From positions 1 through 64,000 of the IMG/VR virus record IMGVR_UViG_3300025030_000067: 64,000 nt of DNA; one strand, given 5' to 3'. Position numbers and translations under genes: made by a program. The stretch comes from a virus. Within the stretch, counting starts at the first letter, position 1, and every line of letters begins with the position of its first letter. A model generated the notes under the pieces. The model was not told the DNA's origin and did no database searches. It saw only the letters and a program-made list of their open reading frames with translations. Shown here piece after piece: positions 4,096 through 55,398 of the stretch.

Positions 4096-4375
4096 CTGCT
4101 ACTTCCTTTCTGCCGGGAGCCGGTTTCCGTTCCTCGGTTTTGATTTTTGCTCTATGGGTCTTGATGTCGGAGATGCCCCTGTCTATGTCTGGGTACAGAT
4201 TTGTTTCGCGCTCCTTGACTGCACCCCGGCCTGCCTGGGCTGAACTGATCTGCTGTTGTCGAACACCTCCGGCGTCGATTGTCCGTAGCTTTCCTTTGTT
4301 GCGATCGCATTGGTAGGTGGCGAGGCAGAGCGCCAATATCAGTGCTGCAATTATGATTTCTCTTATATATGTCAT
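4010..4375 (-). CDS. putative spanin (Rz-like) membrane protein
   Basis: MTYIREIIIAALILALCLATYQC: N-terminal TM/lipobox-like segment, downstream of the endolysin. Confidence 0.45.
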   Translation of the reverse strand: MTYIREIIIAALILALCLATYQCDRNKGKLRTIDAGGVRQQQISSAQAGRGAVKERETNLYPDIDRGISDIKTHRAKIKTEERKPAPGRKEVADEVQNKTQGDIHALARLFVLAGYSCSVR

Positions 4376-4500
4376 TTTGTTACTCCTGGGATCAGGCCAT
4401 ATCCGCATTTACTGCACCACGTTTTGTGTCCGTTGGACGCCATCGGCCCTTTGCATTCCGGACAATTGTCTCCTGTCGGTAATACTATCAGTGGCATTTT

Positions 4501-5121
4501 CTACCTCACTCTGATGAATCCTACGACTTCAAATGCCGAACCAATGTCGAGCCTTCGATTTCGATCAAATACGCCGCCACCCTCGCGCTGGTTGCCAGTG
4601 CTGCCTGGTTGAGTGTTTCCTTCTCTGCTGCGGAAAGTAGTGCGTCCGGTCTGAGCAAGAGCAATACCGGCATGTCCATTGAAGTTCGATGTTGTTCCAC
4701 GGCCATGCCTCCAAATTATTCCATCTGCTGGTCGGATCTTCTCGATACCCATCGAGACGGCTTCCGCGTCAAAAATCTTGTACGTCAGCTCTCTTGCTCT
4801 GCATGTTTGCCACAACAGCGAACATCTGCCGATCCTTGGCAGGTTGTGCCCCTGCTCGTGGTAGTTGTACACGTAGAATGCTGCGCAGTATGGTTGCCCC
4901 ATTGGTAGCCCGAGGTATTTGAGCCAGGTATCTATCTCTGGTGACCGGTTATCGTTGTGGCGCTCTCTGACGTGCAGATATTTTGCGCTATTCTCTACCA
5001 CCCGCTCCTGGAGGGTTGCCCCATGTGCTTGCGTGCAGAAAATAACCGTCAACACGATCAGGAACAAAAATGCCAGGTCGCCGTGTGGGGCGTTTCGGAA
5101 TTTATTATCGTAGCAACTCAT
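4501..5121 (-). CDS. endolysin, CHAP/NlpC-P60-like peptidase with N-terminal hydrophobic segment
   Basis: GQPYCAAF (catalytic Cys), GHAGI (His), EGNT motifs; lysis cassette position. Confidence 0.8.
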   Translation of the reverse strand: MSCYDNKFRNAPHGDLAFLFLIVLTVIFCTQAHGATLQERVVENSAKYLHVRERHNDNRSPEIDTWLKYLGLPMGQPYCAAFYVYNYHEQGHNLPRIGRCSLLWQTCRARELTYKIFDAEAVSMGIEKIRPADGIIWRHGRGTTSNFNGHAGIALAQTGRTTFRSREGNTQPGSTGNQREGGGVFDRNRRLDIGSAFEVVGFIRVR

Positions 5122-15434: not shown

Positions 15435-16130
15435 TCATTTACTCGCTTTCACGGTGGCTGAAATATGCGCATGCGGTTTCCCTGTGTAGGCGCAGACACT
15501 GTCTCCCTGCACCACACCCTTCGGGCTGCCGCTCCCGCCATCCCATTCTATAGTTCCGTCCGAAGTCCATGCTGTTTTGCCCTTTATATGCACCGTGCAT
15601 TTCCCTTGGGCTACTTCGACGGTAATGTCTCCCGTTTCAACGATTACAATCTCGCTATTCTTGATTTTGACCGTTTCGTTGCCGTTGACGTATGTCGTCC
15701 GATTCCCGTCTTTGTCGATCACGATGTCCGTCTTGTTGCATTTCATGTGATACCGGCGCTTGCCTTTGGGAACTTCAGTTTCTTTAGCCATGATCTCGTT
15801 TGATGGCGGGTTGCAGTACCCGGTAACGATCGGCGATGTCCACATGCCGTTGATGAACATGACAATTACGAAGTCGCCTTCTTCCGGCGTCCATTCCACG
15901 CCGGCGTTCATGTTTACTTTTTGCGCCATCATCGGGACTCTGCTCAGTTCGGAATATCCGCCGAATAGGATGATATCTACCACCGTTTGCAGCAGTGGAT
16001 TTCCGGTTGAGTCTTGAAAATAGACTTTTTTGATAGTGCCCTGGAGGGGATAGGGGAATGACCGCATTTCCTGCATTGCAGGTTTATCGCGTAGGCTTTC
16101 TTGTCGGCGTGCGCCGATCTCACTCAACAT
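15435..16130 (-). CDS. baseplate central spike (gpV/gp45-like)
   Basis: OB-fold motif PEEGDFVIVMFING; beta-helix repeats; C-terminal C-x-x-x-G-x-x-H-x-H tip. Confidence 0.75.
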   Translation of the reverse strand: MLSEIGARRQESLRDKPAMQEMRSFPYPLQGTIKKVYFQDSTGNPLLQTVVDIILFGGYSELSRVPMMAQKVNMNAGVEWTPEEGDFVIVMFINGMWTSPIVTGYCNPPSNEIMAKETEVPKGKRRYHMKCNKTDIVIDKDGNRTTYVNGNETVKIKNSEIVIVETGDITVEVAQGKCTVHIKGKTAWTSDGTIEWDGGSGSPKGVVQGDSVCAYTGKPHAHISATVKASK

Positions 16131-17451
16131 ACTTTTGCCCTCGGGTTACTTGTAGGCTTGTAACGAATTGTAATTGTGGCCAGACAATATACTGGTGAGT
16201 AACCTGTTCGATAAGGTAGGACATCTTCTTATTGTTTCCGAGATCGTGTATCAGTTCGTGTCCTGCTTTAATTTCTGGCCGTAAATGAGTTTGAATTGTT
16301 CCTGACCAATAGTCTTGGTTAAGCCTGTACCAGTTCCAAAGCTTTGATTTCGCTTCTTTGGCACTTTCGAGCCAGACTGACGGAGGTGGCAGCACAAACG
16401 GAATGCGCCACTTTGACTCGGGTGGAACAAACTCGTCTTTTATGGTTTTAGAACAATACCCGTGCGATTCAATAGATGCTTCAGACCATTCGACCAGGTC
16501 ACGGTGTGCCATTGCTATTGGGATGTTCATGCCAGCAGCAGTCAAATAAAACGTAGGCTGATAAAACAGAAAATTGATGCGCTCGGTGTCGCATATTCCT
16601 ACGTCGTCGCTGATAATATCTGAATCGAATATGATGTGCTGTCGATCTGGATTTTGTATAATCCGCCCATAGTCGTCCAATGGCCGATCTTCAAGGGTTA
16701 TTGTGAATAATTTTTTCCCTACGTCGTCTGTTTCTGCCGTTAGTACATTGAATGGACCGTGTGCACATTTCGTCAGCATGTCCCATACGCTACATCCTTG
16801 CAGGTTGATAATTGCCGGGTTCCATAACACCCAGTCATCTTTTGCGTTGCTGGTGTCTACCTTGAAGAATGGGTCCCATTTTGGTAACACTTGAGAAAAT
16901 ACTTTTTTGAAAAGTTTCTCTACCATCACCGGTGGAGTGCCGGTAATAAGGCTGACGTCAAACTGGCGGTTGAGTTGGGCATCTATTTTTTGTACATCGC
17001 TATCGCCGTTTTCCGTTGTAATTAAATTAAATGCGACTATGTCCCAGCCTATATCGTGTTTTAGTAAAAGCTTCCCCATATCTTGGCCGCTTATCTTTAC
17101 TTGGCGCTGTGGGGTGTTCCCGCCTGGCCGTGTGAACGAAACTCTGTCTACTAGGCCCATCATAACGGGTTTGTACCCGTTACCGTCGCCTGCATCGAGT
17201 TCGATTGTGACGATGTCGTCGGTAGTGATGTGCTTGTCGTAGGTATCAATTACCCCGAGGTTGTTCGACACAGCCTTGTACGTCAGCATCATCTGCCACG
17301 TCCCGGCTGCTCGTTCGTAGACCTTGTTAGTTGTCAGGCTTATAAGGTCGTTGCTTACGTCAAAGAGATCTTCTCCGGTGTCGTTGCGGATGAACTTGAC
17401 GCGGTGTTTCGGCGAGTAGCTTCTGAAATATTGAGGTGTGTGTTCTGGCAT
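16120..17451 (-). CDS. baseplate hub protein
   Basis: Position between tape measure and spike; ISGQDMGKLL and YLIEQVTH...LQVTRG motifs. Confidence 0.7.
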   Translation of the reverse strand: MPEHTPQYFRSYSPKHRVKFIRNDTGEDLFDVSNDLISLTTNKVYERAAGTWQMMLTYKAVSNNLGVIDTYDKHITTDDIVTIELDAGDGNGYKPVMMGLVDRVSFTRPGGNTPQRQVKISGQDMGKLLLKHDIGWDIVAFNLITTENGDSDVQKIDAQLNRQFDVSLITGTPPVMVEKLFKKVFSQVLPKWDPFFKVDTSNAKDDWVLWNPAIINLQGCSVWDMLTKCAHGPFNVLTAETDDVGKKLFTITLEDRPLDDYGRIIQNPDRQHIIFDSDIISDDVGICDTERINFLFYQPTFYLTAAGMNIPIAMAHRDLVEWSEASIESHGYCSKTIKDEFVPPESKWRIPFVLPPPSVWLESAKEAKSKLWNWYRLNQDYWSGTIQTHLRPEIKAGHELIHDLGNNKKMSYLIEQVTHQYIVWPQLQFVTSLQVTRGQKYVE

Positions 17452-17457
17452 GTGCTT

Positions 17458-17495
17458 ATGGTAGCAAATCCGTAGCGCATATCAAACTGTTTGCC
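17458..17495 (-). promoter_or_regulatory. putative promoter containing the 13-bp box (baseplate hub)
   Basis: Minus strand GGCAAA-cagt-TTGATA-tgcgctacg...-TGc-TACCAT; ATG 6 nt downstream with no SD. Confidence 0.6.
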
Positions 17496-17579
17496 GTTAT
17501 GTCATTCTATGGGCTTGTCTTTTGGTTGGTGTGGTGGTATCTGTTCGGTGTAGCGTATACCTAAATAACAGGGAGGTTT

Positions 17580-18167
17580 GTGATGAAAATGGTTAGTGAT
17601 GTAGTTAAAGTTCTGGAGGGTTTGGCCGTAGAGGACGCTCTGATTATTCTGGACAATGCAAAAAGCGTTGTCCAGAGCGCATCTGGCTTGGCGGTGTCTT
17701 TCGAGTGTAACCGCGAGATGTTCAAAACCAACTATCCCGAACAGGTACTCGCTGCAACTGTCGATTTTGACAAGGAAAGCCTGGAGGCATTCAAAGAACA
17801 AATCCTCAAGGAAGTTGGCGGTATGAAACTGCGCGAAACTCCAAACGGCATGTTATTTGATGCAATGATTAAGCTGGCAAAAGAGCAGAAAACTACTGAT
17901 TCCGCAGAACCCGCCAAGGCAGACGCACCGATAGCGGAGACTCAGCGCGACACGAAATGCATTGTGGCACCTAAATATGGGACGCAAGAATACCGTGACC
18001 GCGAGAATTACAAAAATTCTGTTGTGGTTGAGGTGTGCAACCTACTGTCGCAACGGAGTCTATCTGTTGCTGATGGGACGAGAGTTCTTGAGGTTGCTAT
18101 TGCTCATCTTGTTTTTTCGCCTGTTGCGCCTTTAGATCGGTTAAATGATGAATATAAGCCGCTCTGA
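17580..18167 (+). CDS. hypothetical protein containing a copy of part of the phage's own portal protein
   Basis: GGAGG RBS. Residues NREMFKTNYPEQVL...KLRETPNGMLFDAMI match the portal (51666-53399). Confidence 0.75.
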   Translation: MMKMVSDVVKVLEGLAVEDALIILDNAKSVVQSASGLAVSFECNREMFKTNYPEQVLAATVDFDKESLEAFKEQILKEVGGMKLRETPNGMLFDAMIKLAKEQKTTDSAEPAKADAPIAETQRDTKCIVAPKYGTQEYRDRENYKNSVVVEVCNLLSQRSLSVADGTRVLEVAIAHLVFSPVAPLDRLNDEYKPL

Positions 18168-18371
18168 TTTTTTGCCTGGCATCTTCGGTTGAGTGTGGTT
18201 TTGGTGATATTAAACCAAGCTCAACAGCCGTTAATTGTGCCGCTACCAGCATGATTGTCTTGTCCATCGTTCTCTCCTTGTGGTGTCTGTTTTGATTGGC
18301 GTCGGCACGATACCACGAGAGAACGGTGGACATCATTTTTTTCTTGCAATTCCTTTCCATGGTATCGTACA

Positions 18372-18590
18372 GTCGCTCACATGAGGCATCGCAACCTCTG
18401 TGAGCGGCCCACGCTCCCGACAGTACGTGTTTTTTTGTGCCTGCAATCTGAAATCTGAACATCTGTATAGTACGTCGGGGAGTGGGCTAATAAAATACCA
18501 GTAATGGAAATAACCCAGCCGTCTCACAGCGGTGCGATCCCCCGGCCTACTCTTAGCCGAGTACGCTTAAGTCAGCAAACTGTGAGGTAA
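18372..18590 (+). ncRNA. candidate C4-like antisense/structured leader of the antirepressor operon
   Basis: Two stems (18372-18408, 18408-18486) and repeated CTCACA(G)/(C)TGTGAG elements, the last overlapping the RBS of the BRO gene. Confidence 0.4.
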
Positions 18591-18594
18591 CACC

Positions 18595-19326
18595 ATGCAA
18601 AAACCCGCCTGTAGTCCCGTCCCGGCAGTATTCAGTTTTGAATCCCACGATGTACGAACAATTGTAGTTGGCGAAGAGGTCTGGTTTGTGGCCAGGGACG
18701 TTGCCGCTGTATTGGGCTATGCCAAACCGGAAAAAGCCATTTCATCACATTGTAAGCATGCCAAATCGTTAGCCTCCCCCGAATTGGGGGGGCAGGTTCC
18801 AGCCGGTTGGCCTCGGAATATGATGATCATCCCCGAGCGTGACGTCTACCGCCTGATTATGCGCTCCACTCTTCCCGCCGCCGAAAAGTTTGAAGACTGG
18901 ATTGTCTCCGAGGTCATCCCTTCCATCCGCAAGCACGGCCACTACGGCCAGCCGGTTGTTCTCCCTGCCGATCCGATGCAGATTCTCAAAGTTACTTATG
19001 ACGCCCTGGTGCAGGTGAATACCCGAGTGGACGAGGTACAGGAAACTGTTACCCGTTTGCTCGACACCGTCCGGCTCCAGCAATGGCAATGTTACGAACT
19101 GAAAGCCGCCGTCACGCAGAAGGCGCAGGAGTTCCGTGATACCTATAATTGCACTTATGCGTTGCTCTTTCCCGCCGTCTGGGGCTTTGTCAAAAAACAC
19201 TTCCGGGTTGCTACTTATTCCGCCATTCCGACTGTCCGTTTCGACGAGGCGCTTGCGCTTGTCAAGGCTATCACTTTTGGCGACATGCCCGACTATGTGC
19301 GCGAGAGCGCAGGGGGTGCCAAATGA
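18595..19326 (+). CDS. BRO-N family phage antirepressor (ORF6C-like C-terminus)
   Basis: WFVARDVAAVLGY, IPERDVYRLIMRS.LP.AEKFEDWI.SEVIPSIRKHG; C-terminal F.VATYSAIP..RFDEA. Confidence 0.9.
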   Translation: MQKPACSPVPAVFSFESHDVRTIVVGEEVWFVARDVAAVLGYAKPEKAISSHCKHAKSLASPELGGQVPAGWPRNMMIIPERDVYRLIMRSTLPAAEKFEDWIVSEVIPSIRKHGHYGQPVVLPADPMQILKVTYDALVQVNTRVDEVQETVTRLLDTVRLQQWQCYELKAAVTQKAQEFRDTYNCTYALLFPAVWGFVKKHFRVATYSAIPTVRFDEALALVKAITFGDMPDYVRESAGGAK

Positions 19327-20357
19327 GAATCGAACCCACCCTCAACGAAAAAGTTTACTATCGCACTCCGGAGATGAACCGTAAAAAGAAAGGCTTCATC
19401 GTCGCCGGCAGTATCGAAACCGGCTTTGAAATTAAACCGGTGCGTGAAGGCTATACGCTCAACCCACCGAACATTAACGGAGTTTTCCGCGACAGCATCT
19501 GGACGGCAGCAGAACATGCCGCTGGCAGATTACCGAAAGGCACAGGACGGGGCGTGGCCGCAAAAGAAAGCAAGCGCAGGGGGCAGGTTGGCATGGAGCG
19601 CATCGGCGTGTCTGAGGCTGAAATCATGCGACACCCTGGCATTGTGAGTATCATGGGAAAAATATTGTCAGGTCTGGCAGCACGGAACGGATTTAATCCG
19701 CATTTCGTGCTTGCCGATGGCGTTATGCACAACGACGATCTTGCCGCGAATGAATTGTACAGCGAGTACGTCACGGCAGCTCTCGGGGCTCTGCGCACGT
19801 CCGGCAACAATGCCAGTGATGCCGACATCGAGCAGTTCAAAGCGTACTTGTCCGGTGCATCCCTTGAAAGCAACATCGCGCTTACGATTGCCCGTACCGG
19901 CAAGACCGCAGCCATGCGGCACCTGATCTCGGATAATGACCGGCTGAAAGCGTCCGTTTCCTACGATACCCAGGGTGAAGACGACTACGAGACCGGCATG
20001 CGAGCGATTGCGGCCAAGGTTGCCGTCAATCCAGAACGTGGCTCTGGCGCTGCCAAGCAGGAAGCCCTGACGTTCGGCATTGCGGAACAGCTGGAAGCTC
20101 TGGACGACACGGCGGCAGCGGTCATCATTAAAATGAAGTTCGGCCTGGAGCAGTTCGAGCATGCCTACAAGGAACAGGACATCGCAGCCGCTCTCAACCG
20201 GGCGAAGGTTCCGGCTCCGAATGGCTTGTGGGATGCGGTGAAGGTGAAGATCAAGATGTTGGCTGCGCTTGCGATTCTGGCGCATACCCGAGGGATGCAG
20301 AACCTGCGCGACTTCATAAGCGGTTGCGACTACTCTTTTGTTGGAGGTGCAGCATGA
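19323..20357 (+). CDS. sigma-70-like protein; paralog of the N-terminal domain of the 1504-aa polyprotein
   Basis: ATG 19323 overlaps the BRO stop (ATGA). Region-4-like LEALDD..AVIIKMKFGL...YKEQDIAAALN...AALAIL; co-linear with residues ~70-400 of 37742-42256. Confidence 0.6.
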   Translation: MRIEPTLNEKVYYRTPEMNRKKKGFIVAGSIETGFEIKPVREGYTLNPPNINGVFRDSIWTAAEHAAGRLPKGTGRGVAAKESKRRGQVGMERIGVSEAEIMRHPGIVSIMGKILSGLAARNGFNPHFVLADGVMHNDDLAANELYSEYVTAALGALRTSGNNASDADIEQFKAYLSGASLESNIALTIARTGKTAAMRHLISDNDRLKASVSYDTQGEDDYETGMRAIAAKVAVNPERGSGAAKQEALTFGIAEQLEALDDTAAAVIIKMKFGLEQFEHAYKEQDIAAALNRAKVPAPNGLWDAVKVKIKMLAALAILAHTRGMQNLRDFISGCDYSFVGGAA

Positions 20358-21969: not shown

Positions 21970-24585
21970 CTATTGTCCTTTCGGAGCGCTGATTATTGCT
22001 GATGTAATGTCCCTCACTGGCTTTACCACAATCCCATTGGTGGTGATGTAGTCAAATAATTTCTTCGTATAATCTTCCGAATACGGTGCATTTGTTGCCG
22101 GGTTGGCTGCCGAGTTTGGCCGCTCTCCCGGCTTCTTTGTTTTTTCTACCCTCTCTTCCACTTCATCGGTATATTTTGGTCCCAGTACCGTTTGCATCAC
22201 TGGGCTACGGTCGATGTCCTCTTGCCTGTATGCTCCGTCATAGATATTCGCGTATTTTTCTACAGTGTCTACATACCCGCTTGTGACTTTCGATTGTGGC
22301 AGATGTTTCTTCCAGTTTTTGGGATCTTTCTTCACCGCCTTGTCAACATTCCCTGGCCCTGCGTTATATGCCGCGAGCGCCTTTTCCTCGTCACCTTTGT
22401 ATCTGTCGAGCATTTGCTTGAGGTATTTTACCCCGCCGATCATATTTTGCGTTTCGTTGAATGGATCTCTTACCCCCATGTCTCTTGCCGTTTCGGGCAT
22501 GAGCTGCATAAGCCCTTTTGCCCCTTTGTCGGACACTGCATTGGGGTCGCCGCCGCTTTCTGCCTTGATGACAGCTTTTACCAGTGAAGGCCGGACTTTG
22601 TACTGCCGTGCAATCCTTTCGGCCTCAGACATCCGTTGCGCTTGTGGTCGGGTCGGTGTAGTGCCGGTGTCCTTTCCATAGGTGCCATCCGTAAAGTAGT
22701 CGAGTGCAAACTTGGTGCCCTCGTATGCTGCAAGCCCCGTTAATGCAGGTAGCACCATGCGTCCCATGATTGCTTTACCTGCTGCTCCGCCTGGGATCAT
22801 GTTGCTGATGGACGATGCGAACATGAGGGTTGCGGCTCCCATCATGAGCTTTCCTGCTGGTCCCGCTTCTTTCATGGCTCCTGCGATCGAATCAAAGGCA
22901 CCTTTCCAGTTCTGGTCGGTCAGTGCGCTTGCGAACGTCAATGCGCCGTCCTCGAACTTCCCAAACAGCTTGTTCAGCTGCTCTCCGGCCTCTATTTTTA
23001 CCATCTGCCGTTTTGCTTCCAGAGCTTCTTTGTTGATTGCCGGGTTTTTACCGATCTCCTTTTGCCATTCAGCGTATATCCGCTTGTCCTCCGCGCTGCC
23101 TTTGGACAGGTCACCTATTTTCTTCTTGCCGCCGTCGAGTGCCACTGAAAGCCTGTCAAAAAAGCTCGTTCCTGTTTTTTCATCCTTCTTTGACATAGCG
23201 ATCAATTTTTCGGCTGGCGCACCCTTTATGCCGGCTGCTTCCAAGAGTGTTTCAAGTTCTCCGGCTTTCCCTTTGTCTGTTGTTGAACGGAGACCGCCAA
23301 TCAGCTGAGACAGCAGCTTGGGATTCTCCATGAATCCGCCCTGCTTCATCACGTTCATGTCGTGGATCTTCTCAAAGTTCATTGGTCCTTTGAATCCACC
23401 CATCAGCTGGAATAACCGAATGTCTCCCGCTGCAGTCCCGGCACCTTGCAGGCCGTTCTGCATGAAGTTCTGAAAGTTTCCGCTCTTGGCGTACTGTGCA
23501 TAATCTGCCTTGCTCTGCGTGGCTTTCATCGCCTCTATCGCGAGAGCGGTGGCTTGCCCTGCCTGCTTATCGCTCCCGGCTCCACCCATGGCCTGTGCGG
23601 TCGCCTGCGTGTTCCGGCTGACCAGCTGCAGCAGTTCGGATGCTCGGGACTTGTCCATCCCTTTCTTGATCGCCTCGCCCATCATGGACAGTGCGCCGGT
23701 ACCGGCCTGTTGGTTACCGGTCGCCTGGTACATCGTGCCGTACATGCCTGCTACTTGGCTGGGGTCAGTTCCGGTGTACTTCGCGAACCTGCCGGACATA
23801 TTCGCTGCAGAATTGGCCTTCTTGCCGAACATGCCGGTTGACTGGCTGATTCCTTCCAGCATCTGCATCTGTTCGAGCGGGTCTATACCTGCGCTGACAC
23901 CGTCGTTATATCCGCTCTTGATGCCTCTGGCGTAGAGTCTGCCTTCATGGCCGACCGCCTGTTGGTACTGTGCTCTGGATGATCCAAGAAAGCCGAGTAG
24001 CGAGAAGCCACCTGCTGCCGCTAATCCCCACCCGACGGCCTTTTTGATGGTGTTGCCCATGGTGCTGGCTTGGCTCCCACCACCAGACGCTTCTTCATCA
24101 ACACGGCTTGTTACTGTACGGCCATAGTTCCCGTGTTCTTTAAAATAGCGGTCTGCCGCTGTCTCTCGCTTACGTGGTTCGTTGGCATCTTTCCAGAAAG
24201 CGTCTGCGGCTCTCTGTGACTCCTTATGCATTCTGGCTGATTCGGCAGATGACACCGTGCCTACGCCTGGTGCCGCTGTTGCCGCTGCGCCTCTGAACGA
24301 TGTCATTGTTTTTATCAGCTTGTCGTAGTCTTTGGCTATGTCCGATACGACTCTTCGTGTGCCTTCCATCTCCTTGCGATATGCAATTGCACTCTTGGCG
24401 GTACGATCCATTGCTCCGGCATTTACCGTTGCGTCAGTCCCAGGTGGACCTCCAGAATTGACACCTCCGACGATAGTGAATTCTTTATCGTTAAGCTTAC
24501 TGGCTTTGTCCGCAAGCAGTTCAACTTCCCTTTTAGCGTCTGTTACCTGCTGGCGGTTTACCCTGATATCAATGCCGATTCCCAT
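21970..24585 (-). CDS. tape measure protein with lytic transglycosylase (SLT) domain
   Basis: Ala/Gly-rich helical protein after the tail chaperones; AVIKAESGGDPNAVSDKGAKGLMQLMP and ALAAYNAGPG SLT motifs. Confidence 0.9.
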   Translation of the reverse strand: MGIGIDIRVNRQQVTDAKREVELLADKASKLNDKEFTIVGGVNSGGPPGTDATVNAGAMDRTAKSAIAYRKEMEGTRRVVSDIAKDYDKLIKTMTSFRGAAATAAPGVGTVSSAESARMHKESQRAADAFWKDANEPRKRETAADRYFKEHGNYGRTVTSRVDEEASGGGSQASTMGNTIKKAVGWGLAAAGGFSLLGFLGSSRAQYQQAVGHEGRLYARGIKSGYNDGVSAGIDPLEQMQMLEGISQSTGMFGKKANSAANMSGRFAKYTGTDPSQVAGMYGTMYQATGNQQAGTGALSMMGEAIKKGMDKSRASELLQLVSRNTQATAQAMGGAGSDKQAGQATALAIEAMKATQSKADYAQYAKSGNFQNFMQNGLQGAGTAAGDIRLFQLMGGFKGPMNFEKIHDMNVMKQGGFMENPKLLSQLIGGLRSTTDKGKAGELETLLEAAGIKGAPAEKLIAMSKKDEKTGTSFFDRLSVALDGGKKKIGDLSKGSAEDKRIYAEWQKEIGKNPAINKEALEAKRQMVKIEAGEQLNKLFGKFEDGALTFASALTDQNWKGAFDSIAGAMKEAGPAGKLMMGAATLMFASSISNMIPGGAAGKAIMGRMVLPALTGLAAYEGTKFALDYFTDGTYGKDTGTTPTRPQAQRMSEAERIARQYKVRPSLVKAVIKAESGGDPNAVSDKGAKGLMQLMPETARDMGVRDPFNETQNMIGGVKYLKQMLDRYKGDEEKALAAYNAGPGNVDKAVKKDPKNWKKHLPQSKVTSGYVDTVEKYANIYDGAYRQEDIDRSPVMQTVLGPKYTDEVEERVEKTKKPGERPNSAANPATNAPYSEDYTKKLFDYITTNGIVVKPVRDITSAIISAPKGQ

Positions 24586-25437: not shown

Positions 25438-25851
25438 TTATCGCTGGGAAACGCGGTGTCTTGCCAAAATTTGAAAATTTTCGCCGGTCACTTGATGCTT
25501 GGTGTATCTGCGGCTGTGGGTGTTGAACTTGCAGCCGGTGTAGTTCTCGATGGTGGTGCCGGAGACGGTGTCAATGACTTCTACCGAGAGTTCCGGAGCG
25601 GTCAGCCATTCGTCGCTGTTGGGTACGAACCCGAGCTTTTCCAGCGTTTCCGCTGCCACCAGGTATTTCTCGCCGCTGATGCGGTGGGTGAGTTTGCCAA
25701 CAACGTGCTCCACGACTTCTACGTCGCCGAGCCCGTCCACTTCCTGGAGATTGAAATCGTCTTCAAAACTTACGTTCTGGCAGGTTCCGATTGCCTCTCC
25801 CTTCATCTTCAGTATAACCCTGTTGCCGGTTGCGGTATTCTTAACAGCCAT
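25438..25851 (-). CDS. tail tube protein
   Basis: 137 aa directly after the sheath; TGNRVILK...EVDGLG..EHV, YTGC motifs as in SPO1/Twort-like tubes. Confidence 0.85.
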   Translation of the reverse strand: MAVKNTATGNRVILKMKGEAIGTCQNVSFEDDFNLQEVDGLGDVEVVEHVVGKLTHRISGEKYLVAAETLEKLGFVPNSDEWLTAPELSVEVIDTVSGTTIENYTGCKFNTHSRRYTKHQVTGENFQILARHRVSQR

Positions 25852-37741: not shown

Positions 37742-40700
37742 CTATGCCTCCAACTGTTTAATGTGGCGTTCGAGCATGGCGCCGACTTCTGCCGAGCCTT
37801 GCTTGCCGAGCCGTTCATGACCTTTGTATTTAAGGATGTTTTTAGCTGTTTTGGCGTATTTTTCGGGGGTCGAATAATCCGGGTGGTCGGTGTTTATCCC
37901 CATGCCGCCGCGACCTTTTTTATCGTGCCGCTCGAATGCGTCGTGAAGTTCCTTGACCATCTCATGGTGAGGTTGCCCTTTTTGCGCGACATTCGCTGTT
38001 GCTCCGGATGCTGTGGTGCGAGTGTATGCAGCATGATCGGAGTGCTGTGACTTGCGTAAGATATGCGCTACAGAGAGGGCACAACTTTTCCTGACTGGCT
38101 CCTGTACTGTTTTGGGGCTTCCGTCGCCCTTTGGTCGTTTCGACTTGATCAGGTACATTTCACGTCTCCTTCCCTTAAATAACCTCACTTGCAGTAGTCC
38201 TGAGTGATCACCCGGGAGATGATCGGCCATGGGCTCTTTGTTTTCTTTGGCCGGCATGTTTTCTTCTTTCCATTTTTCCCAATGGGTGTGGGCTCCGTGG
38301 ACCTCTTCTTCTGCATCGAGTATCCGCTGCTTGGTGTGATCATCCAGTGTGCCCCAGTGGGGGAGGTGGGCGAACCGTTCCTGTCGCAGTTTATGGAGCT
38401 GGTGGCTGCTCTCGGTACGTGCCAGCTTGATTGCGTAACGCTTCACTCGGCTGTCTTCGTGGGCATCGATGTGTGCAAGTGCCCCGGATGCAGTCGTGCG
38501 GTCGTAGGCTGTGACGTGCGATTTCAGGAGCCGAACGGCTGCGGTTTCGCTGCTGACTCGTCCTTGCCTGCCTGCTCTCGTTTGTTCTTGGGTTTCTTCT
38601 TTTTGGACTTTGCAGCTGCAGCTTTCTTCTTGTCCGCAACATCCATTGTGTCCGCATCCGCAAGAGCTTTTTTCAAGAGTTCCGACTTCTTCTTGTACTT
38701 TTCCTCGTCGCTTAATTCCGCCATTGCTTCCTCCGTGCGATTTTATCAGGTGTGTTAAGGCTGGCCGCTGTAATGACTTTTTCACACCATCATCGGAACT
38801 ATTCACCTTGTCAAGAGCCTGCTTTACGACCTGCTCTTTGTTCTTTGGCTCCGCTGGTCCCGAGAACATGTCCACCTCGGGGTTTTCCCGGCTGGCAACC
38901 TCGTTTTTGATGCCGTTGCTGATGGCTCGGAAGACGTTTTCCAACCTGTTGCGAGATCCGGCTCGGTCGCTGATCGCCAGTATCATGTCAACGGAGTGAT
39001 CAGTTTTGAACTTCGGGGTGTCTCCGGTGAAGTCCAGCGAGCCAGCGTTTTTAAGAGTGTGCTCCAGCTCTGCCTTACTCTGGTTCTGGTGTGCCAGTGT
39101 GTACTCGATCGCTTCCATCATGTCCGGCACCACGTCCAGGTCGTCATGGCCTTTGATCTGGGCGAAGTCGCCGACGCACCCGTTCAGCGCCTTGAGTATG
39201 TTCCTGATCTTCGGCTTGGCGCTCTCGGCTTGCAGCTCGGTCAGCATGGAGCTGCCGTATACTTTCGTGAAGACCGCGTTCTGGATCCGCTCGATGCATT
39301 TCTTGTTCGGGTCGCCGTCAGCATCGCGCAGGCCGGCTGATTCGTTCTTGCCCAGCTTGTCGAGGAATCCATTGATGAAGTCCATATTTTCGTCGTTGTA
39401 GATTTCACCGTCTTCGTCGACCGCGAACTTCTTGAGCAGGCTGTCGTCGATTCTGGCCGAGTCATTCCATGCCTGTTCTGCTGGCGAAGAGCCGAGGTTG
39501 CCGGTGTCGTTGGCTTCTCTGGCAAACTCTGCCCGGTCGGTATTTTTGTCGTCATCGCTGCGGACTCTGACCAGTACCGGGTTTTTCATCTTCTCGACAT
39601 CTTCCGGCTTTATGCCGAACGTGTCCGCTTCGCCTTTCAGCCATTCCTTGTAGTGATCCGCCAGTCCGCGCTTGTACGCTTCCGTCAGGGCGATGGTGCG
39701 ACCATTGCCGCTTTCGACAGCTCCATCCTTGCCGACGATTGGAGCGCCATGAGCAGCCATTGAACCGGCACCGAAAAGTTCCGGCTTGATATCGTTCATC
39801 ATGTTTGCCATTTGCATCTGGCTCGATAGGCGTTCCCGTTCTCGGGGCTGTATCTCTTGAGGGTAAGCTCTGTTGATATGTCCCTGGATGGTGTGGGAGG
39901 TCGTCAAGTCGTCGGATTCCACCAGCGCATACTTACTGCTGACCTCGTTCATCTTGGCCGTGTAGGCTTTGTTCTCTTTGCCCATGACGAACTTAGGCTC
40001 TTTCTTGCCGGTGTCCACGCTCTGGACTTCCTTCTTGCCCTGGAGGCTGGATATCTGCTCTTTGTCCTTGCTCGGGTCGCCACCGGCGAAGTGTACCGTG
40101 TGGCCGTCGCTATCCTTCGACATGATTATGGAGTGGCCGTCTTTCTCGTATTTCGTCGCGGTGCTGTCGCGATCGACCTGGTGACCGTAGTGCTTCAACA
40201 GCTTCTCGCGGTAGTCGTCAATGGCCGCCGTGTAGGTGTTGCTCCGGCTGGTGTTTATGTTCTTGAGTACTGAGACTGGGTCGTCGCTGGCTGCTGCGGC
40301 TTCGCGCATCTTCTTCATGCCGCGTTCGGCTGTCTGTAGAGCTCCGTTCTCCCGGTTCTTCGCCTTGATCTCTTCATGCTCCGGCATGTCTTCTTTTTTG
40401 CCGCCCTTGTGCCCTTCGATTGGCTTCACCTGATGGACTTCGCGCTCTTTCCAGCCTCGGCTCTTGAGGTGTTCGGCCAGCTGATCGCCGTGTTTCAGTT
40501 TGGCTCCCGAGTGTATCTCTTCTCCATGCTCATTTTGGTGCTTGAGCACGTCCTGGTGCTTCTTGACACGTTTGTCGTCGTGCTCTTGCACTACCGAGCC
40601 GTCCTGCCTGGTATATTGCTTTACGTGGGACTTGATCAGCATGGACCGATCCATGAGATTGTCGGCTCTCAGGCTCTTGGTGAATATGTCGATATCCATC

Positions 40701-51665: not shown

Positions 51666-53399
51666 TCAGTCGAGTGTGATCTTGAGGAACTTCGTCTCGG
51701 GCTGTGACTTCCGCATTGACTTGTAATACTGGTCACTGTCGCCGCCCTGTTGATCGTCTCCCTGGTCTTCGTCCTGATCCGGTTCTTCTTCTGCCTGTTG
51801 CTGCTGTGCGAATGTGTTCAGGTAGTTCGGGATCGGCACGTCTGCAGGGTAATTCCATGGGTTCTTGTCGTACTTCTCTTTGTTCTCGTCGCCCTCCTGG
51901 AGCTTGCTGTACTGCTCTGGCGGCAGGTAGAATCCGATGGGGGCTCCGCCTTCTTCCATGCGACATTCGTTCTTGGTGATCCATTTGGAGACTCGGCTGG
52001 TGCGGATATCGACCGCCTGTTTCTCGTCTTCCGGGTTCAGGCCAACAACTATCAGCTTGAGGTCGTCATATCTAGGTTTAATGAGTGCGTCGGTGAGCCA
52101 TTCCGCCATGTCGGTGATGGAAGGGATGAGTCCGTGTTCTTTCGAGAACTCAATTTCTCCGGAGGCATTACCGGCAAAGATGCTACCGCCGCCTGCGCCA
52201 CTGTCGGTCTCCATGTTCAGTGTGCTGGGGTGGGCTCCGTAGGCCGAGCATTTGAACATGACCATCATCCTGATCATCTGGTCGAACAGCATGTCCTTTG
52301 GAGACTCGCGGAGCTTCACGCTTTCGATCTTGAAGTTCTCCATGTCGCCGGCAGGGATTACCGGCAGGCGCCAGTTGTTGCCGACTCCACCAGCCTCGCC
52401 AAGTATCTGCTGCTTGAACGCGGCCAAGCCTTCTTTGTCGTAGTCGCCGGAGACCGTCAGCACCTGCTCGGGATAGTTGGTCTTGAACATCTCGCGGTTG
52501 TATGTGAATGCCATGAGCAGGCTGGTGGTGATGTCCAGTGACTCTTCCAAGCGGGATGTACCGTATCCCCATCGGTTGAGCCGGTCGCTCGGGTTACTGA
52601 TGTGGACGCTGATTTCGTCGTCGGTGAATGCAGCTGTGATCATACCGTCGATCATCTGGACATAGCTGGCACGGGCGAGGTCAAACCCGGTGGAGTACGA
52701 CATCTTGTTTATCGTGTCTCGGCCTACCTTGCCGTTGCTCTCGTTCTTTTGAGCCCATGCCCGAATTGACTCATCCACGTTCTTGATCGTCTCTCCTGGC
52801 AGCCAGTGGAATGCTGCGTAGCCTTGGCCGTCTCGGCGTTTGTATCGGAGGATGCATTTGCGGTCGATGATCAGCTCCGTGCGGGTCAGAACGCCGACGA
52901 GGTCTTTCAATCGGGTATGTGGCCGGACGTTGTGCGGGTAGAGGTAGATGTGTTCGGTGGGCGTCGGGTCGCTGATGAATTTCTCCATCTCGTGGCAGCG
53001 TTCTTTATCCTGTCTGGTGACCTTGTAGTCGGGATCATCTGCGCGGTCGTGAACAACTCTGAATCCAATCTCCTTGTTCTTGCCCTCATTGGCCTTCTGC
53101 CAGATGCGTTTCTGCTGGTCGGTCCGGGCTCTGATCAGGATGCGGTCGAGGGTGGATTTTTCTGCGGCTTCGTACAGGATGGAAAACTGCGGGGTGCCTA
53201 TTGGCTTTTCTCGGGCTCCCATTACTATTGAGTTGTTTAATGCGAATTTGGAGAAGAAAGACGCTTTATTTTCGTCTCTTCGCATTTTATTAGCTTCTGA
53301 TTTTATCAGGTCGTCCGCTGAATGTTTTGGCACCAATAATCCTGATGAAAGTTGCACTGACTCTTCAAACACTCTGTTCAGGAATAATTTGTTATGCAT
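51666..53399 (-). CDS. portal protein
   Basis: 577 aa; NP...YGTSRLE, NREMF..NYP, DMLF, AYGAHP..L, T.NECR motifs; acidic tail; head module position. Confidence 0.88.
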   Translation of the reverse strand: MHNKLFLNRVFEESVQLSSGLLVPKHSADDLIKSEANKMRRDENKASFFSKFALNNSIVMGAREKPIGTPQFSILYEAAEKSTLDRILIRARTDQQKRIWQKANEGKNKEIGFRVVHDRADDPDYKVTRQDKERCHEMEKFISDPTPTEHIYLYPHNVRPHTRLKDLVGVLTRTELIIDRKCILRYKRRDGQGYAAFHWLPGETIKNVDESIRAWAQKNESNGKVGRDTINKMSYSTGFDLARASYVQMIDGMITAAFTDDEISVHISNPSDRLNRWGYGTSRLEESLDITTSLLMAFTYNREMFKTNYPEQVLTVSGDYDKEGLAAFKQQILGEAGGVGNNWRLPVIPAGDMENFKIESVKLRESPKDMLFDQMIRMMVMFKCSAYGAHPSTLNMETDSGAGGGSIFAGNASGEIEFSKEHGLIPSITDMAEWLTDALIKPRYDDLKLIVVGLNPEDEKQAVDIRTSRVSKWITKNECRMEEGGAPIGFYLPPEQYSKLQEGDENKEKYDKNPWNYPADVPIPNYLNTFAQQQQAEEEPDQDEDQGDDQQGGDSDQYYKSMRKSQPETKFLKITLD

Positions 53400-53868
53400 T
53401 GGCCGTCTCCTGATAATTCTTCCAAGACTGGTTGTTTAATATTTTAGCGGTCTGAGCGATTGATAGTCCGTATCTCTGGCCGATTGATTTATATGTTCCG
53501 GTTTTCCCGTTTCGTCGCATTTCCTGCACTTGCTTGAGTGTTACCTTTGCTTCGTTGTGACGTTCTCCGTCTGGTTGACGCCGCTTCTTGGTCCTGTCTG
53601 CTACGTTTTCTATGTTTGTTCCGACGAACAGGTGGTCGGGTCGGATGCATCTGGGGTTGTCGCATTTATGCAGGACTTGCAATCCTTCTGGTATCGGGCC
53701 GTTGTGCATCTCCCAAGAGAATCGGTGCGCTTTCCCCATTTTCCCGTGGTGGTGAAAGAACCCGTATCCGTCTTTATCTCTTGCTGCCTGCCACTCCCAG
53801 CACTCTTTGCTCTTGTCTACTTTCTCCCAGAAGTTTTCTTCCGGCGTTCTGACTGGCCATCTTGGCAT
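53392..53868 (-). CDS. HNH endonuclease
   Basis: CWEW...GYG..KAHRFSW...VLHKCDNPRCIRPDHLFVGT..EN. Confidence 0.9.
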   Translation of the reverse strand: MPRWPVRTPEENFWEKVDKSKECWEWQAARDKDGYGFFHHHGKMGKAHRFSWEMHNGPIPEGLQVLHKCDNPRCIRPDHLFVGTNIENVADRTKKRRQPDGERHNEAKVTLKQVQEMRRNGKTGTYKSIGQRYGLSIAQTAKILNNQSWKNYQETANA

Positions 53869-54279: not shown

Positions 54280-54396
54280 TTGGGCGCTTTGTAGATCTGG
54301 TTTTCTAATTATGCTTGGCACGCTTCCTTGTATTGGTGTTCTTATGTGGAGTGGCTCGCTACGTCAACGTGGTTTTCTTTTGCACCTTGGCTATGC
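54280..54396 (-). repeat. TIGR-like array, downstream block (3 x 36-bp units)
   Basis: Minus strand (A/T)GCCA-N9-AGAA(A/C)ACCA-N9-AGCG x3, starting in the TAG stop of the Tas gene. Confidence 0.85.
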
Positions 54397-55398
54397 TGCT
54401 TGCTTCTCCCCGCCATGGACGTATCCCAGCTTCGCCTCGTGGTAGGGTAGCGACACCGGCAGACCCTCAATGGTCCTCCAAGCTGTGTAGAGGTCGATCA
54501 GGAACATCTTGACCATGTAGCGCATCGCGGCGTTGTGTCGGTGCCCCTTCTCGCTCACGGTTTTCTCTTTGCCCTTGTCGTTGGTTTCGGTTCGGTCCTT
54601 CCAGTTGGTGTGATTTTCCAGACGGTTCTTGTAGTCGTCATATATCGTCCGGTATTTGCTCTCACCGGCTCTCAGGAAGCTGCTGGCGAGCACTCCCATC
54701 AGTTTTGTTTTGAGGAATGGGTTGAATGTGATTCCGTTCCTGATCGCTGAGTTACCTTCTTTGTCGATATACGCTACAGTCTGGAGATGCTCTTTCCTTC
54801 GTGATCGGCCTTTGCCATCATCTGCGCAGTCGAGTCCTGCATACTTCCAGATGCTGCTCGGGTGTCTGGACTTGGTGATGTCGATCTCGCTGATGATCAC
54901 TCCTGCCATGGCTGGGCCTATGCCTCTGACGCCTTCGAGGAATTCGACGTATATCGGGTAATCTTCGAGTATCTTGCCGAGCATCCGGAAGTGCCGGTTC
55001 TCTTGGGATTCGAGGTCTTTGTATTGCGATATCAGGCAGAGCTCCGTGTAGTCACTGATCACTGGATTTCCCTTGAATTTCTTTTTGCTGGGCAGGCCGT
55101 CTGCCGTCAGTAGTGAGTAGTGTTTATCGAGCAGTTGGGACACAAGCCCTGCGATCTTCTTTTCTTCTTTTTCCGTCTGTTCCAGCTCCGCGACTGCTCC
55201 GGTGGTGACCAGTTTGTTGGCATTCCGTATCCGTGCCAGCAGTTGCTGCGATTCGGCGTCGAGTCCTTCTTCTGGTTCGCTTGGTGCCTGGCCGAGTTTG
55301 GCCTTGAAGTTGCCGACTATCCTGTTTCCGGTTTGGATGCGGAGCTTCTGGATGTCGTAGCTCCCTCTTACGATGGTTTTCAGATTTCCTGCTGACAT
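54391..55398 (-). CDS. TasA-like Nop-domain RNA-guided protein (IS110-related, no nuclease domain)
   Basis: QKLRIQTGNR coiled coil; FLEGVRGIGPAMAGVIISEID...SSIWKYAGL; FNPFLKTKL; HNAAMRYMVKMFLIDLYTAWR. No RuvC/DEDD or HNH motifs; flanked by 36-bp arrays; AAGGAGG RBS. Confidence 0.85.
   Translation of the reverse strand: MSAGNLKTIVRGSYDIQKLRIQTGNRIVGNFKAKLGQAPSEPEEGLDAESQQLLARIRNANKLVTTGAVAELEQTEKEEKKIAGLVSQLLDKHYSLLTADGLPSKKKFKGNPVISDYTELCLISQYKDLESQENRHFRMLGKILEDYPIYVEFLEGVRGIGPAMAGVIISEIDITKSRHPSSIWKYAGLDCADDGKGRSRRKEHLQTVAYIDKEGNSAIRNGITFNPFLKTKLMGVLASSFLRAGESKYRTIYDDYKNRLENHTNWKDRTETNDKGKEKTVSEKGHRHNAAMRYMVKMFLIDLYTAWRTIEGLPVSLPYHEAKLGYVHGGEKQAA

What the first reader, a model, noticed from the sequence alone, without database searches (positions are those of the whole stretch)
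17709..17872. Free-standing copy of the portal clip region in a plus-strand gene: decoy or assembly inhibitor?
Seen: ORF 17580-18167 contains NREMFKTNYPEQVLAATVDFDKESLEAFKEQILKEVGG-MKLRETPNGMLFDAMI. The portal (~52270-52500, minus) reads NREMFKTNYPEQVLTVSGDYDKEGLAAFKQQILGEAGG[22 aa]VKLRESPKDMLFDQMI. Identity is 28/38 then 11/16, with an in-frame 22-aa deletion; the DNA differences in the 14-residue identical block are synonymous. Established knowledge: by motif this segment is the stem-clip-stem of HK97-type portals, where terminase and adaptor dock, and Avs4-type sensors recognise portals. Inference: a portal mimic acting as an anti-defence decoy, or a dominant-negative packaging inhibitor for superinfection exclusion.
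Basis: partly seen in the sequence, partly recalled or inferred. Interest (0 to 1): 0.72.

Follow-up and report, generated by a model that had tools for sequence, protein, structure and literature searches.

The report
Portal-clip copy inside accessory phage gene
A temperate phage keeps a small extra gene, outside its head genes, that holds an old but well-preserved copy of the docking tip ("clip") of its own DNA-packaging portal minus one hairpin; it looks like a working molecular mimic, but what it binds has not been tested.

Summary
The gene at 17583-18167 (+), 194 aa with a strong ribosome site, carries in residues 34-99 a paralogue of portal residues 291-338 plus 361-378 (BLASTP E 5e-22). 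39 of 54 aligned residues are identical, and exactly 22 portal residues are missing. A portal model, read against the published T4 definition, places the segment at the stem end, first clip strand, clip helix and start of the second stem helix. The missing piece is the two-strand clip hairpin. Third codon positions are close to saturation (0.44 identical) while positions 1+2 are 0.83 identical; 0 of 2000 neutral simulations reached the observed protein identity. So the copy is old and under selection. The family is tiny: 4 sequences. It is absent from a complete relative, an Oryzomonas rubra provirus. It lies in an anti-repressor island, next to a second free-standing copy of part of a virion protein. 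My best reading (0.35) is a soluble clip mimic that competes for a clip partner (portal subunit, terminase or adaptor), probably to interfere with assembly or packaging. The decoy and inhibitor ideas are both still untested. This scan has noted free-standing portal-clip genes before in at least 8 other phage genomes. I found no paper describing one.

The parts
17572..17576 (+). Shine-Dalgarno GGAGG, 6 nt before ATG 17583
   Evidence: Read from the sequence. Conserved in L004.
17583..18167 (+). Accessory gene, 194 aa plus stop. It has no Pfam, PHROG, PADLOC or PDB sequence match.
   Evidence: Homologues are P0001 (94%), P0002 (79%) and P0003 (partial).
17583..17681 (+). N-terminal part, residues 1-33, no portal similarity. 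6 of the 11 non-synonymous differences to L004 fall here (7 within residues 1-42), and no synonymous-only difference does.
17682..17879 (+). Portal-like part, residues 34-99. It corresponds to the end of stem helix 1, the tip loop, the first clip strand, the clip helix, a remnant of the last clip strand and the start of stem helix 2.
   Evidence: BLASTP, codon alignment, portal model.
17822..17823 (+). Junction where the 22 portal residues 339-360 (the two-strand hairpin) are missing, in frame.
17880..17939 (+). Low-complexity linker, about residues 100-119. Partly deleted in P0003.
   Evidence: Alignment A2.
17940..18164 (+). C-terminal part, residues 120-194, of unknown family. It has 0 non-synonymous and 3 synonymous differences to L004, is nearly identical in P0003, and is replaced by a diverged version of the same length in P0002 and run X9.
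51666..53399 (-). Portal gene, 577 aa, the paralogous source type.
52272..52499 (-). Portal segment 301-376 that the ORF copies. It is the most conserved stretch of this portal family.
52320..52385 (-). Codons for portal residues 339-360: the loop, strand 347-350, the turn and most of strand 357-362. This is the part absent from the ORF.
18100..18267 (-). Possible 56-aa gene with its own AAGGAGAG site, convergent with the ORF and overlapping its last 68 nt. Whether it belongs to this feature is uncertain.
   Evidence: Against L004, dN is 0 and dS 0.057.
18595..19326 (+). Anti-repressor (Bro-N plus ORF6C), the neighbour in the same plus-strand island.
19323..20357 (+). 344-aa free-standing paralogue (66.7% identical over 330 aa) of an internal part of the 1504-aa virion protein encoded at 37742-42256 (-).
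   Evidence: The orthologue in L004's contig is 95% identical.

Best explanation
The gene at 17583-18167 is a real accessory gene under selection in a temperate myovirus of about 90 kb. The phage's nearest named relative is a provirus of Oryzomonas rubra (Geobacteraceae). The middle third of the protein is an old paralogue of the part of the portal that protrudes from the capsid. It keeps the end of the first stem helix, the tip loop (14 of 14 residues identical), the first clip strand, the clip helix and the start of the second stem helix. It has lost precisely the two-strand hairpin. In T4, the clip sheet between neighbouring subunits is built from one strand of one subunit and two strands of the next, and the clip is where the packaging ATPase and later the neck dock. 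I therefore read the protein as a soluble mimic of the clip. It could engage something that normally engages the clip: a portal subunit's hairpin, the large terminase or the adaptor. It could not itself extend a portal ring. The unrelated C-terminal domain, joined through a flexible linker, would add a second function or anchor. The gene lies with an anti-repressor in a plus-strand island inside the minus-strand late operon. The most likely role is therefore interference with head assembly or DNA packaging, either of superinfecting relatives or as a brake on the phage's own packaging. Shown: the paralogy, the mapping to domains, purifying selection, mosaic spread, and the temperate context. 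Inferred: the fold of the copy, any binding, and the biological role.
For: Paralogy: BLASTP E 5e-22, and the portal is the only non-self hit in the genome.
Mapping: the portal model has stem, three strands plus helix, then stem. The fold matches solved portals. T4 passages define the clip, the 1+2-strand inter-subunit sheet, and terminase and neck docking; HK97 passages say the same about docking.
Selection: 39 of 54 residues are identical, with 22 synonymous-only codon differences. dN is 0.156 and dS is too saturated to compute. Third-position identity is 0.44 against 0.83 at positions 1+2, and 0 of 2000 neutral simulations reached 39 of 54 (maximum 28; 1795 of 2000 acquired a stop). The ORF family keeps 20-21 of the 24 columns that are at least 90% conserved among 102 portals, against 18-19 of 30 variable columns (Fisher p 0.04-0.06).
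A real gene: there is a strong SD. The frame is intact in four variants. Contigs from hydrocarbon and pond metagenomes cover the gene at about 91-93% identity, and none of the 12 listed indels falls within 17583-18267; 13 further indel rows were not shown.
Mobile accessory module: the ORF block is 97% identical at the nucleotide level to L004 (dS 0.047). The neighbouring anti-repressor has dS 0.275, and the adjacent tail protein is only 58% identical. The N- and C-terminal halves are shuffled among P0002, P0003 and the window.
Context: an integrase is present in G000 and G001. The anti-repressor is the neighbour. The island holds a second free-standing partial copy of a virion protein.
Against: No binding partner, expression or phenotype is known. 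The copy lacks two of the three clip strands and has changed 4 of the 24 portal-invariant positions, so it may not fold like a clip at all. Between the window and L004, residues 1-96 differ by 11 non-synonymous and only 2 synonymous codons (dN about equal to dS). That fits relaxed constraint as well as an arms race. In P0003 the portal-like part is shortened further and its 14-residue block is altered. The family is very rare. Only P0002 and P0003, besides the window's own cluster, appear among 1.84 billion representatives. It is absent from the complete relative G001 and from 185,579 species genomes. The portal segment is identical across the window's clade, so an inhibitor aimed at it would also hit the phage's own portal unless expression is controlled, and no such control is shown.
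Confidence: 0.35

Rival explanations
1. Bait or blocker for a portal-sensing host defence (Avs4, Avs11 or SpbK type). The free clip copy, made early or from the prophage, would occupy the sensor without triggering it, or would divert it.
For: Portal-sensing defences exist: Avs4 and Avs11 (passages) and SpbK, which binds the SPbeta portal (passage). The excess of non-synonymous over synonymous changes in the N-terminal half between close relatives (11 against 2 codons in residues 1-96) would fit an arms race. The gene is in an accessory island and spreads as a mosaic block.
Against: Which part of a portal these sensors bind was not established here. The passages I read describe recognition of folds over extended interfaces, and a 66-residue fragment without the hairpin reproduces such an interface poorly. 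No portal sensor is known in the presumed hosts. There is no PADLOC hit nearby. A partial mimic could just as well trigger a sensor. No anti-defence protein of this kind appeared in the two reviews I searched by passage.
Confidence: 0.15
2. Co-opted building block. A piece of portal gene was captured by illegitimate recombination and is now only a helical and strand scaffold in a protein whose function lies in the N- and C-terminal parts, for example regulation tied to the anti-repressor island. That function would have nothing to do with portal partners.
For: Two thirds of the protein is not portal-like. The C-terminal part is the best conserved, with 0 non-synonymous changes to L004 and near identity in P0003. 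P0003 tolerates further deletions in the portal-like part. Phage genomes are mosaics, and this island holds another captured fragment.
Against: The residues kept are preferentially the ones invariant in portals, 20-21 of 24, including the whole 14-residue tip block. A generic scaffold would not need them. The deletion removes one complete structural element rather than a random piece.
Confidence: 0.22
3. A helper for the phage's own assembly. It would act as a chaperone or timer that holds portal monomers, or the terminase, until procapsid assembly starts.
For: The structural logic is the same as in the best explanation. The portal segment is identical in the carriers' own portals, so the phage's own portal and its partners are the nearest targets.
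Against: The complete relative G001 assembles without it, and so presumably do more than 100 phages with related portals. It lies on the opposite strand, outside the head module, beside an anti-repressor. That is unusual for an assembly factor.
Confidence: 0.1
4. A neutral relic. The ORF is a chance chimera left by recombination and has no function.
For: The distribution is narrow. dN is about equal to dS in residues 1-96 between two close relatives. There is no family match.
Against: The protein sequence is preserved although synonymous sites are saturated, and 0 of 2000 neutral simulations match it. The frame is intact in four variants from different habitats. There is a strong SD. None of the indels listed in divergent contigs falls in the gene.
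Confidence: 0.08

Closest known systems
Clip domain of tailed-phage portal proteins (T4 gp20 residues 279-358, PMC4493910; phage 812 portal, PDB 8q7d/8qje, PMC12886913)
   Same: It is homologous in sequence to this phage's own clip and the adjoining stem ends. It keeps the tip loop, the first strand and the clip helix.
   Different: It is free-standing and soluble, with no wing or crown. It lacks the two-strand hairpin. It is fused to two unrelated parts and is encoded outside the head module on the other strand.
Free-standing portal-clip mini-genes noted earlier by this scan in T4-like, jumbo, crAss-like, Bxz1-like and Mu-type phages (AI notes; unpublished as far as I could find)
   Same: It is a small gene under selection that copies only the clip region of the phage's own portal, and its target is untested.
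   Different: It comes from another portal family (812/SPO1-like) and has no sequence relation to those genes (one search found no look-alike). The hairpin is deleted. It is embedded in a 194-aa three-part protein. It sits in a temperate phage's anti-repressor island, and the family has only four members.
immI region of Salmonella phage P22 (ant, arc, mnt, with sieA nearby, inside the late operon); recalled from my own knowledge, not checked in any call
   Same: An anti-repressor island interrupts the late structural operon of a temperate phage and carries accessory, exclusion-type genes.
   Different: No sequence relation was tested or is expected. P22 SieA is a membrane protein acting at DNA entry, not a mimic of a virion protein.
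Packaging-interference proteins of phage satellites (for example SaPI Ppi acting on the helper's small terminase); recalled from my own knowledge
   Same: They are small proteins that interfere with a competitor's DNA packaging by binding a packaging component.
   Different: They are not derived from the portal and are encoded by satellites. There is no homology here.
Portal-sensing defences Avs4, Avs11 and SpbK (passages), and the T7 portal's moonlighting on RelA/SpoT (PMC13483052, section 9 read)
   Same: They show that portals have binding partners other than virion parts, which a mimic could address.
   Different: In T7 the clip is dispensable for RelA/SpoT binding and an intact ring is needed, so that route is unlikely here. 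No sensor was tested.

Membership tests
Portal protein (PF04860-type, canonical portal fold) | Full set of wing, stem, clip and crown domains in a protein of about 400-700 aa | tested here: not met
   The ORF is 194 aa and only residues 34-99 align to the portal. It has no Pfam or PHROG hit. The true portal at 51666-53399 does meet this feature.
Portal clip domain (three strands plus one helix between two stem helices; T4 definition) | Clip helix and first strand flanked by stem helices | tested here: met
   ORF residues align to portal 291-338, which is helix 283-305, strand 312-317 and helix 322-335 in the model, and to 361-378, the start of helix 368-386. This rests on homology only, because the ORF's own model is unusable.
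Portal clip domain (three strands plus one helix between two stem helices; T4 definition) | Two-strand hairpin that completes the three-stranded inter-subunit sheet | tested here: not met
   Portal residues 339-360 (strand 347-350 and most of strand 357-362) are absent from the ORF.
Free-standing portal-clip genes (this scan's notes) | Separate small gene, similarity limited to the clip region of the phage's own portal, kept by selection | tested here: met
   It differs by its extra parts and the missing hairpin. It has no sequence relation to the earlier cases.
Anti-defence decoy or inhibitor of portal sensors | Binds or blocks a portal-sensing defence protein | not testable with these tools
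   No sensor of the host is known. PADLOC gives no hit for the ORF or its neighbours, apart from a weak PbeC match for 19323-20354 at E 0.009.
Prophage accessory (moron or exclusion) gene | Encoded by a temperate phage in an accessory island outside the conserved order of essential genes | tested here: met
   An integrase is present in G000. The complete relative G001 is a provirus of Oryzomonas rubra. The same site in G001 holds an anti-repressor island without this gene.
Prophage accessory (moron or exclusion) gene | Expressed from the prophage and excludes other phages | not testable with these tools
   No RNA run holds the stretch. The promoter scan was uninformative.

The most novel reading that the evidence does not exclude
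Tailed phages of many lineages have repeatedly evolved free-standing copies of the portal clip as weapons or regulators aimed at the packaging vertex. This instance is a hairpin-less 'chain-terminator' version that a prophage uses, together with the neighbouring free-standing copy of a virion polyprotein domain, as a kit of dominant-negative virion-protein fragments. The kit would block assembly or packaging of superinfecting relatives.
Probability: 0.18. Interest if true: 0.85.

Novelty: new variant of a known kind. Interest (0 to 1): 0.6.

Why it matters
The portal clip is the hub where the packaging motor and then the neck dock. A natural soluble mimic of it, kept by selection, would be a new type of viral tool. 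It could be an inhibitor of head assembly or packaging used between competing phages, or a bait for host sensors of portals. It would also give a ready-made probe for the still poorly resolved contact between terminase and portal. This case is useful for three reasons. The missing element is exactly the one that links neighbouring subunits, which gives a testable 'cap' model. The phage is temperate and has a cultivated host genus for a relative. A second free-standing virion-protein fragment lies beside it, which hints at a wider strategy. If instead it is only a co-opted scaffold, it still documents how new phage genes arise from pieces of essential ones.

Tried and rejected
- Complex prediction of portal residues 64-500 with ORF residues 1-120: verdict 'no answer', score 0.00, controls not run. 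This is no evidence either way.
- Structure of the ORF from its 4-sequence alignment: mean pLDDT 38.8, unusable, so no fold search was run on it.
- ESM Atlas look-ups for the whole protein and for residues 118-194: best scores 0.77 and 0.83, below the level that means anything.
- Pfam, PHROGs, PADLOC and PDB sequence searches of the ORF and its homologues: nothing.
- Phage GenBank collection: no match for the DNA or the protein.
- Genome collection, two scans, and metagenome scan: no further free-standing homologue. The 3 metagenome loci are portal genes.
- Viral-contig scan with the neighbouring tail protein: nothing.
- RNA evidence: no RNA holder listed. Run X17, labelled RNA-Seq but probably DNA, gave only short contigs. 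Nothing can be said about expression.
- Table 3 was cut (179 rows not shown), so I could not rebuild the variant genes or compute dN/dS from the metagenome contigs.
- Promoter and terminator scan: 3 promoter-like sites against 1.8 expected, none convincing.
- Internal repeat between the N- and C-terminal parts: E 0.18, rejected.
- Link to the TIGR-Tas guide arrays near the portal: the 12-14-nt matches between the arrays and the rest of the genome do not touch the ORF or the portal segment. Rejected.
- Link to the intein found in related portal alleles (P0017, P0004): the intein sits after residue 281, 10-20 residues upstream of where the similarity begins. I found no relation between the ORF's N-terminus and the intein by eye, and I did not pursue it.
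- T7-type portal moonlighting on RelA/SpoT: the clip is dispensable there (section 9 read). Rejected as a model.
- Origin from another phage's portal: the ORF segment is no closer to any of 102 portals than to its own clade (39-42 of 54), so no donor can be named.
- P0130, a 146-aa protein with the hairpin and the stem start followed by unrelated sequence: its context could not be fetched, so I could not tell whether it is a second kind of fragment gene or a broken portal.
- Literature: searches (0 papers; 3 papers; 13 papers, 10 listed) showed no paper on a free-standing portal-clip gene. I saw listings only, plus passages of two reviews. Supplementary files were not opened.

Full report
WHAT IS THERE. 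The window is the first 64 kb of a 90,534-nt IMG/VR virus record that CheckV rates as complete. The late structural genes run on the minus strand, from the portal (51666-53399, 577 aa) down to baseplate and tail genes near 4-17 kb. Between a tape-measure-like lytic tail protein (21970-24585) and a tail or baseplate protein (16120-17451) lies a plus-strand island of about 4.5 kb. It holds the gene in question (17583-18167), an anti-repressor with Bro-N and ORF6C domains (18595-19326), a 344-aa gene (19323-20357), and two further ORFs. The genome encodes a tyrosine integrase. A complete relative, G001 (89.8 kb, portal 74% identical), is classed as a provirus and has its integrase at one end. Its portal is 100% identical to a protein that NCBI names as the portal of Oryzomonas rubra, Geobacteraceae. 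So this is a temperate myovirus, probably of Geobacteraceae or their neighbours. The habitats of runs holding the stretch are groundwater, sediment, hydrocarbon and pond metagenomes.

The ORF most likely starts at ATG 17583, 6 nt after GGAGG, and its homologues start at the same Met. BLASTP against the portal gives E 5e-22, aligning ORF 34-99 with portal 291-378 across one 22-residue gap. In the whole genome the portal is the only non-self match (E 3.5e-20). The codon alignment gives 28 of 38 and 11 of 16 identical residues. A 14-residue block (NREMFKTNYPEQVL) is identical and carries four third-position synonymous differences. The missing piece is portal residues 339-360.

WHICH PART OF THE PORTAL. 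An AlphaFold2 model of the portal, built from 102 homologues (mean pLDDT 75), shows helix 283-305, strand 312-317, helix 322-335, strands 347-350 and 357-362, and helix 368-386, followed by a low-confidence loop. Foldseek finds solved portals: phage 812 at E 1.7e-22, and also HK97, T5, GTA and lambda. HMMER aligns residues 245-562 to the phage 812 portal. This is the topology the T4 portal paper describes: two stem helices joined by a clip of three strands and one helix. According to that paper, the clip is exposed outside the capsid and is the attachment site of the packaging ATPase and the neck. [quoted passage not shown] The HK97 motor paper and the phage 812 neck paper say the same about docking (passages). 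The ORF therefore keeps the end of stem helix 1, the tip loop, the first strand, the clip helix, two residues of the last strand and the first 11 residues of stem helix 2. It lacks exactly the two-strand hairpin. That the hairpin is the 'two-strand' donor of the inter-subunit sheet is my inference from the T4 description. I did not check it on coordinates.

IS IT SELECTED. The ORF copy and the portal differ in 37 of 54 codons, 22 of them only synonymously. dN is 0.156 and dS is too saturated for Nei-Gojobori. Third positions are 0.44 identical and positions 1+2 are 0.83 identical. I evolved the portal segment neutrally until third positions reached 0.44. In 2000 such simulations the mean protein identity was 10.2 of 54, the maximum was 28, and 1795 runs acquired a stop. 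None reached the observed 39. For comparison, portals that are only 72-74% identical overall still share 0.65-0.67 of third positions with the window's portal in this segment. The copy is therefore old, or its codon usage has been reshaped: GC3 is 0.52 against 0.81. Among 102 portals, 24 of the 54 columns are at least 90% conserved. The three full-length ORF variants keep 20-21 of these 24, against 18-19 of the 30 variable columns (Fisher p 0.04-0.06). The short variant P0003 keeps 11 of 20. The ORF segment is about as close to its own clade's portals (39-42 of 54) as a median family member is (40 of 54), so no foreign donor stands out.

RESULTS THAT CUT THE OTHER WAY. Between the window and L004 (94% protein identity), residues 1-96 differ at 11 non-synonymous and 2 synonymous codons. 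Within residues 1-42 the count is 7 against 0, with dN 0.082 and dS 0.017. Residues 97-194 differ at 0 and 3. The numbers are small and fit relaxed constraint as well as diversifying selection. P0003 has a shorter and more altered portal-like part. Four portal-invariant positions are changed.

DISTRIBUTION. In 5.8 billion clustered proteins there are three homologues: 94%, 79%, and a 125-aa partial. In 1.84 billion representatives read by HMMER there are 14 hits at E up to 0.001. Two are this family. Two are repeat proteins that I judge spurious. Ten are proteins of 564-972 aa matched only through the portal-like part; six of those reappear as portal homologues, and the other four were not checked. 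The 79% homologue, P0002, has the same contig profile (7 contigs, longest 90,277 nt) as a portal that is 87% identical, P0023, so it probably comes from a sister phage. The gene is absent from the complete relative G001, where the same site holds an anti-repressor and a 121-aa gene. It is also absent from the phage GenBank set and from 185,579 species genomes. A search for short proteins containing the clip found only P0002 and one unrelated-looking 146-aa protein, P0130.

MOSAIC BEHAVIOUR. The block 17400-18590 is 96-97% identical to L004, and the ORF's dS there is 0.047. In contrast, the neighbouring anti-repressor has dS 0.275, and the adjacent tail protein is only 58% identical in protein and gave no blastn match. 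A pond-metagenome contig keeps the first two thirds of the gene but has a diverged stretch of the same length over 17963-18229, which matches P0002's different C-terminal part. P0003 combines the window's C-terminal part with a different portal-like part. So the gene is a shuffled, recently exchanged accessory module.

A SECOND FRAGMENT GENE. The 344-aa gene at 19323-20357 is 66.7% identical over 330 residues to an internal part of the 1504-aa virion protein encoded at 37742-42256. In G001 the only match lies inside the long protein. The island thus holds two free-standing diverged copies of parts of virion proteins.

HOW IT MOST LIKELY WORKS. The protein keeps the outward tip and the acceptor side of the clip and has lost the element that would link it to the next subunit. 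It is attached by a flexible linker to an unrelated conserved domain. The simplest mechanism is competition. It could bind a portal subunit's hairpin and cap the growing ring, or it could occupy the terminase or adaptor surface that normally meets the clip. It is encoded with an anti-repressor on the strand opposite to the late genes of a temperate phage, so I favour a role in interfering with assembly or packaging of related superinfecting phages. A brake on the phage's own packaging is a variant of this. I put the reading at 0.35. The rivals are a decoy for portal sensors (0.15), a co-opted scaffold with an unrelated function (0.22), a helper for the phage's own assembly (0.10), and a relic (0.08). 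Nothing here shows binding.

COMPARISON WITH WHAT IS KNOWN. It is not a portal, and it is not a complete clip domain (see the membership table). Three literature searches turned up no paper on a free-standing clip gene (listings only, plus passages of two reviews). This scan's own notes list at least 8 earlier cases in other phage groups, all with untested targets. They are unchecked AI notes, and none is related in sequence to this gene. They raise the possibility of a convergent class, and they mean that this case is a new variant rather than the first of its kind. What is particular here is the deleted hairpin, the three-part architecture, the temperate anti-repressor island, the second fragment gene next to it, and the very small family.

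VERDICT. The feature is real, is not a chance match and is under selection. Interest is 0.6.

Noticed in passing
window 19323-20357 (+) and 41069-42058 (-): A 344-aa free-standing gene behind the anti-repressor is 66.7% identical over 330 residues to an internal part of the 1504-aa virion protein. It is 95% conserved in L004's contig. In provirus G001 the only match lies inside the long protein.
   Followed up: partly
portal relatives P0017 (contig of L010) and P0004; site corresponds to window about 52556-52559 (-): Portal alleles 99% and 73% identical to the window's portal carry an intein of about 360 aa with a LAGLIDADG endonuclease (PF14890, PF03161), inserted after residue 281. That is 10-20 residues upstream of the segment copied in the ORF. 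The window's portal is intein-free.
   Followed up: partly
window 18100-18267 (-): A 56-aa ORF with its own AAGGAGAG ribosome site converges on the clip-copy gene and overlaps its last 68 nt. Against L004, dN is 0 and dS 0.057. Indels in relatives begin just upstream of its start codon. It has no family match.
   Followed up: partly
window 16120-18590 against L004: Sharp mosaic boundary. The clip-copy block is 97% identical in DNA between two phages whose adjacent tail or baseplate protein is only 58% identical in protein.
   Followed up: yes
protein P0130 (146 aa, NCBI/ENA, contig up to 4487 nt): A short protein that begins with the portal's clip hairpin and stem start (84% identical over 41% of the query region) and then continues with unrelated sequence. 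It may be another kind of portal-fragment gene or a broken portal. Its context could not be fetched.
   Followed up: partly
L022 (G001:52500-59000) 4326-4823 (+): The Oryzomonas rubra provirus has a 165-aa tail-tube-like gene directly upstream of the tail protein. It has no counterpart at that position in the window. Its only match in the window's genome is the tube gene at 25438-25851.
   Followed up: partly
window 18440-18470: A 9-nt unit is present once more in relatives (an insertion after 18450/18451 in L004 and in runs X4 and X9). It lies in a run of ATCTG-containing repeats upstream of the anti-repressor and could be an operator-like repeat.
   Followed up: no
window 53392-53868 (-) and 54391-55398 (-): An HNH endonuclease gene overlaps the portal start by 8 nt. 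Further upstream lies the TasA-like gene with its guide arrays, already followed up by the scan. 12-14-nt matches between the arrays and the rest of the genome do not touch the clip copy or the portal segment.
   Followed up: partly
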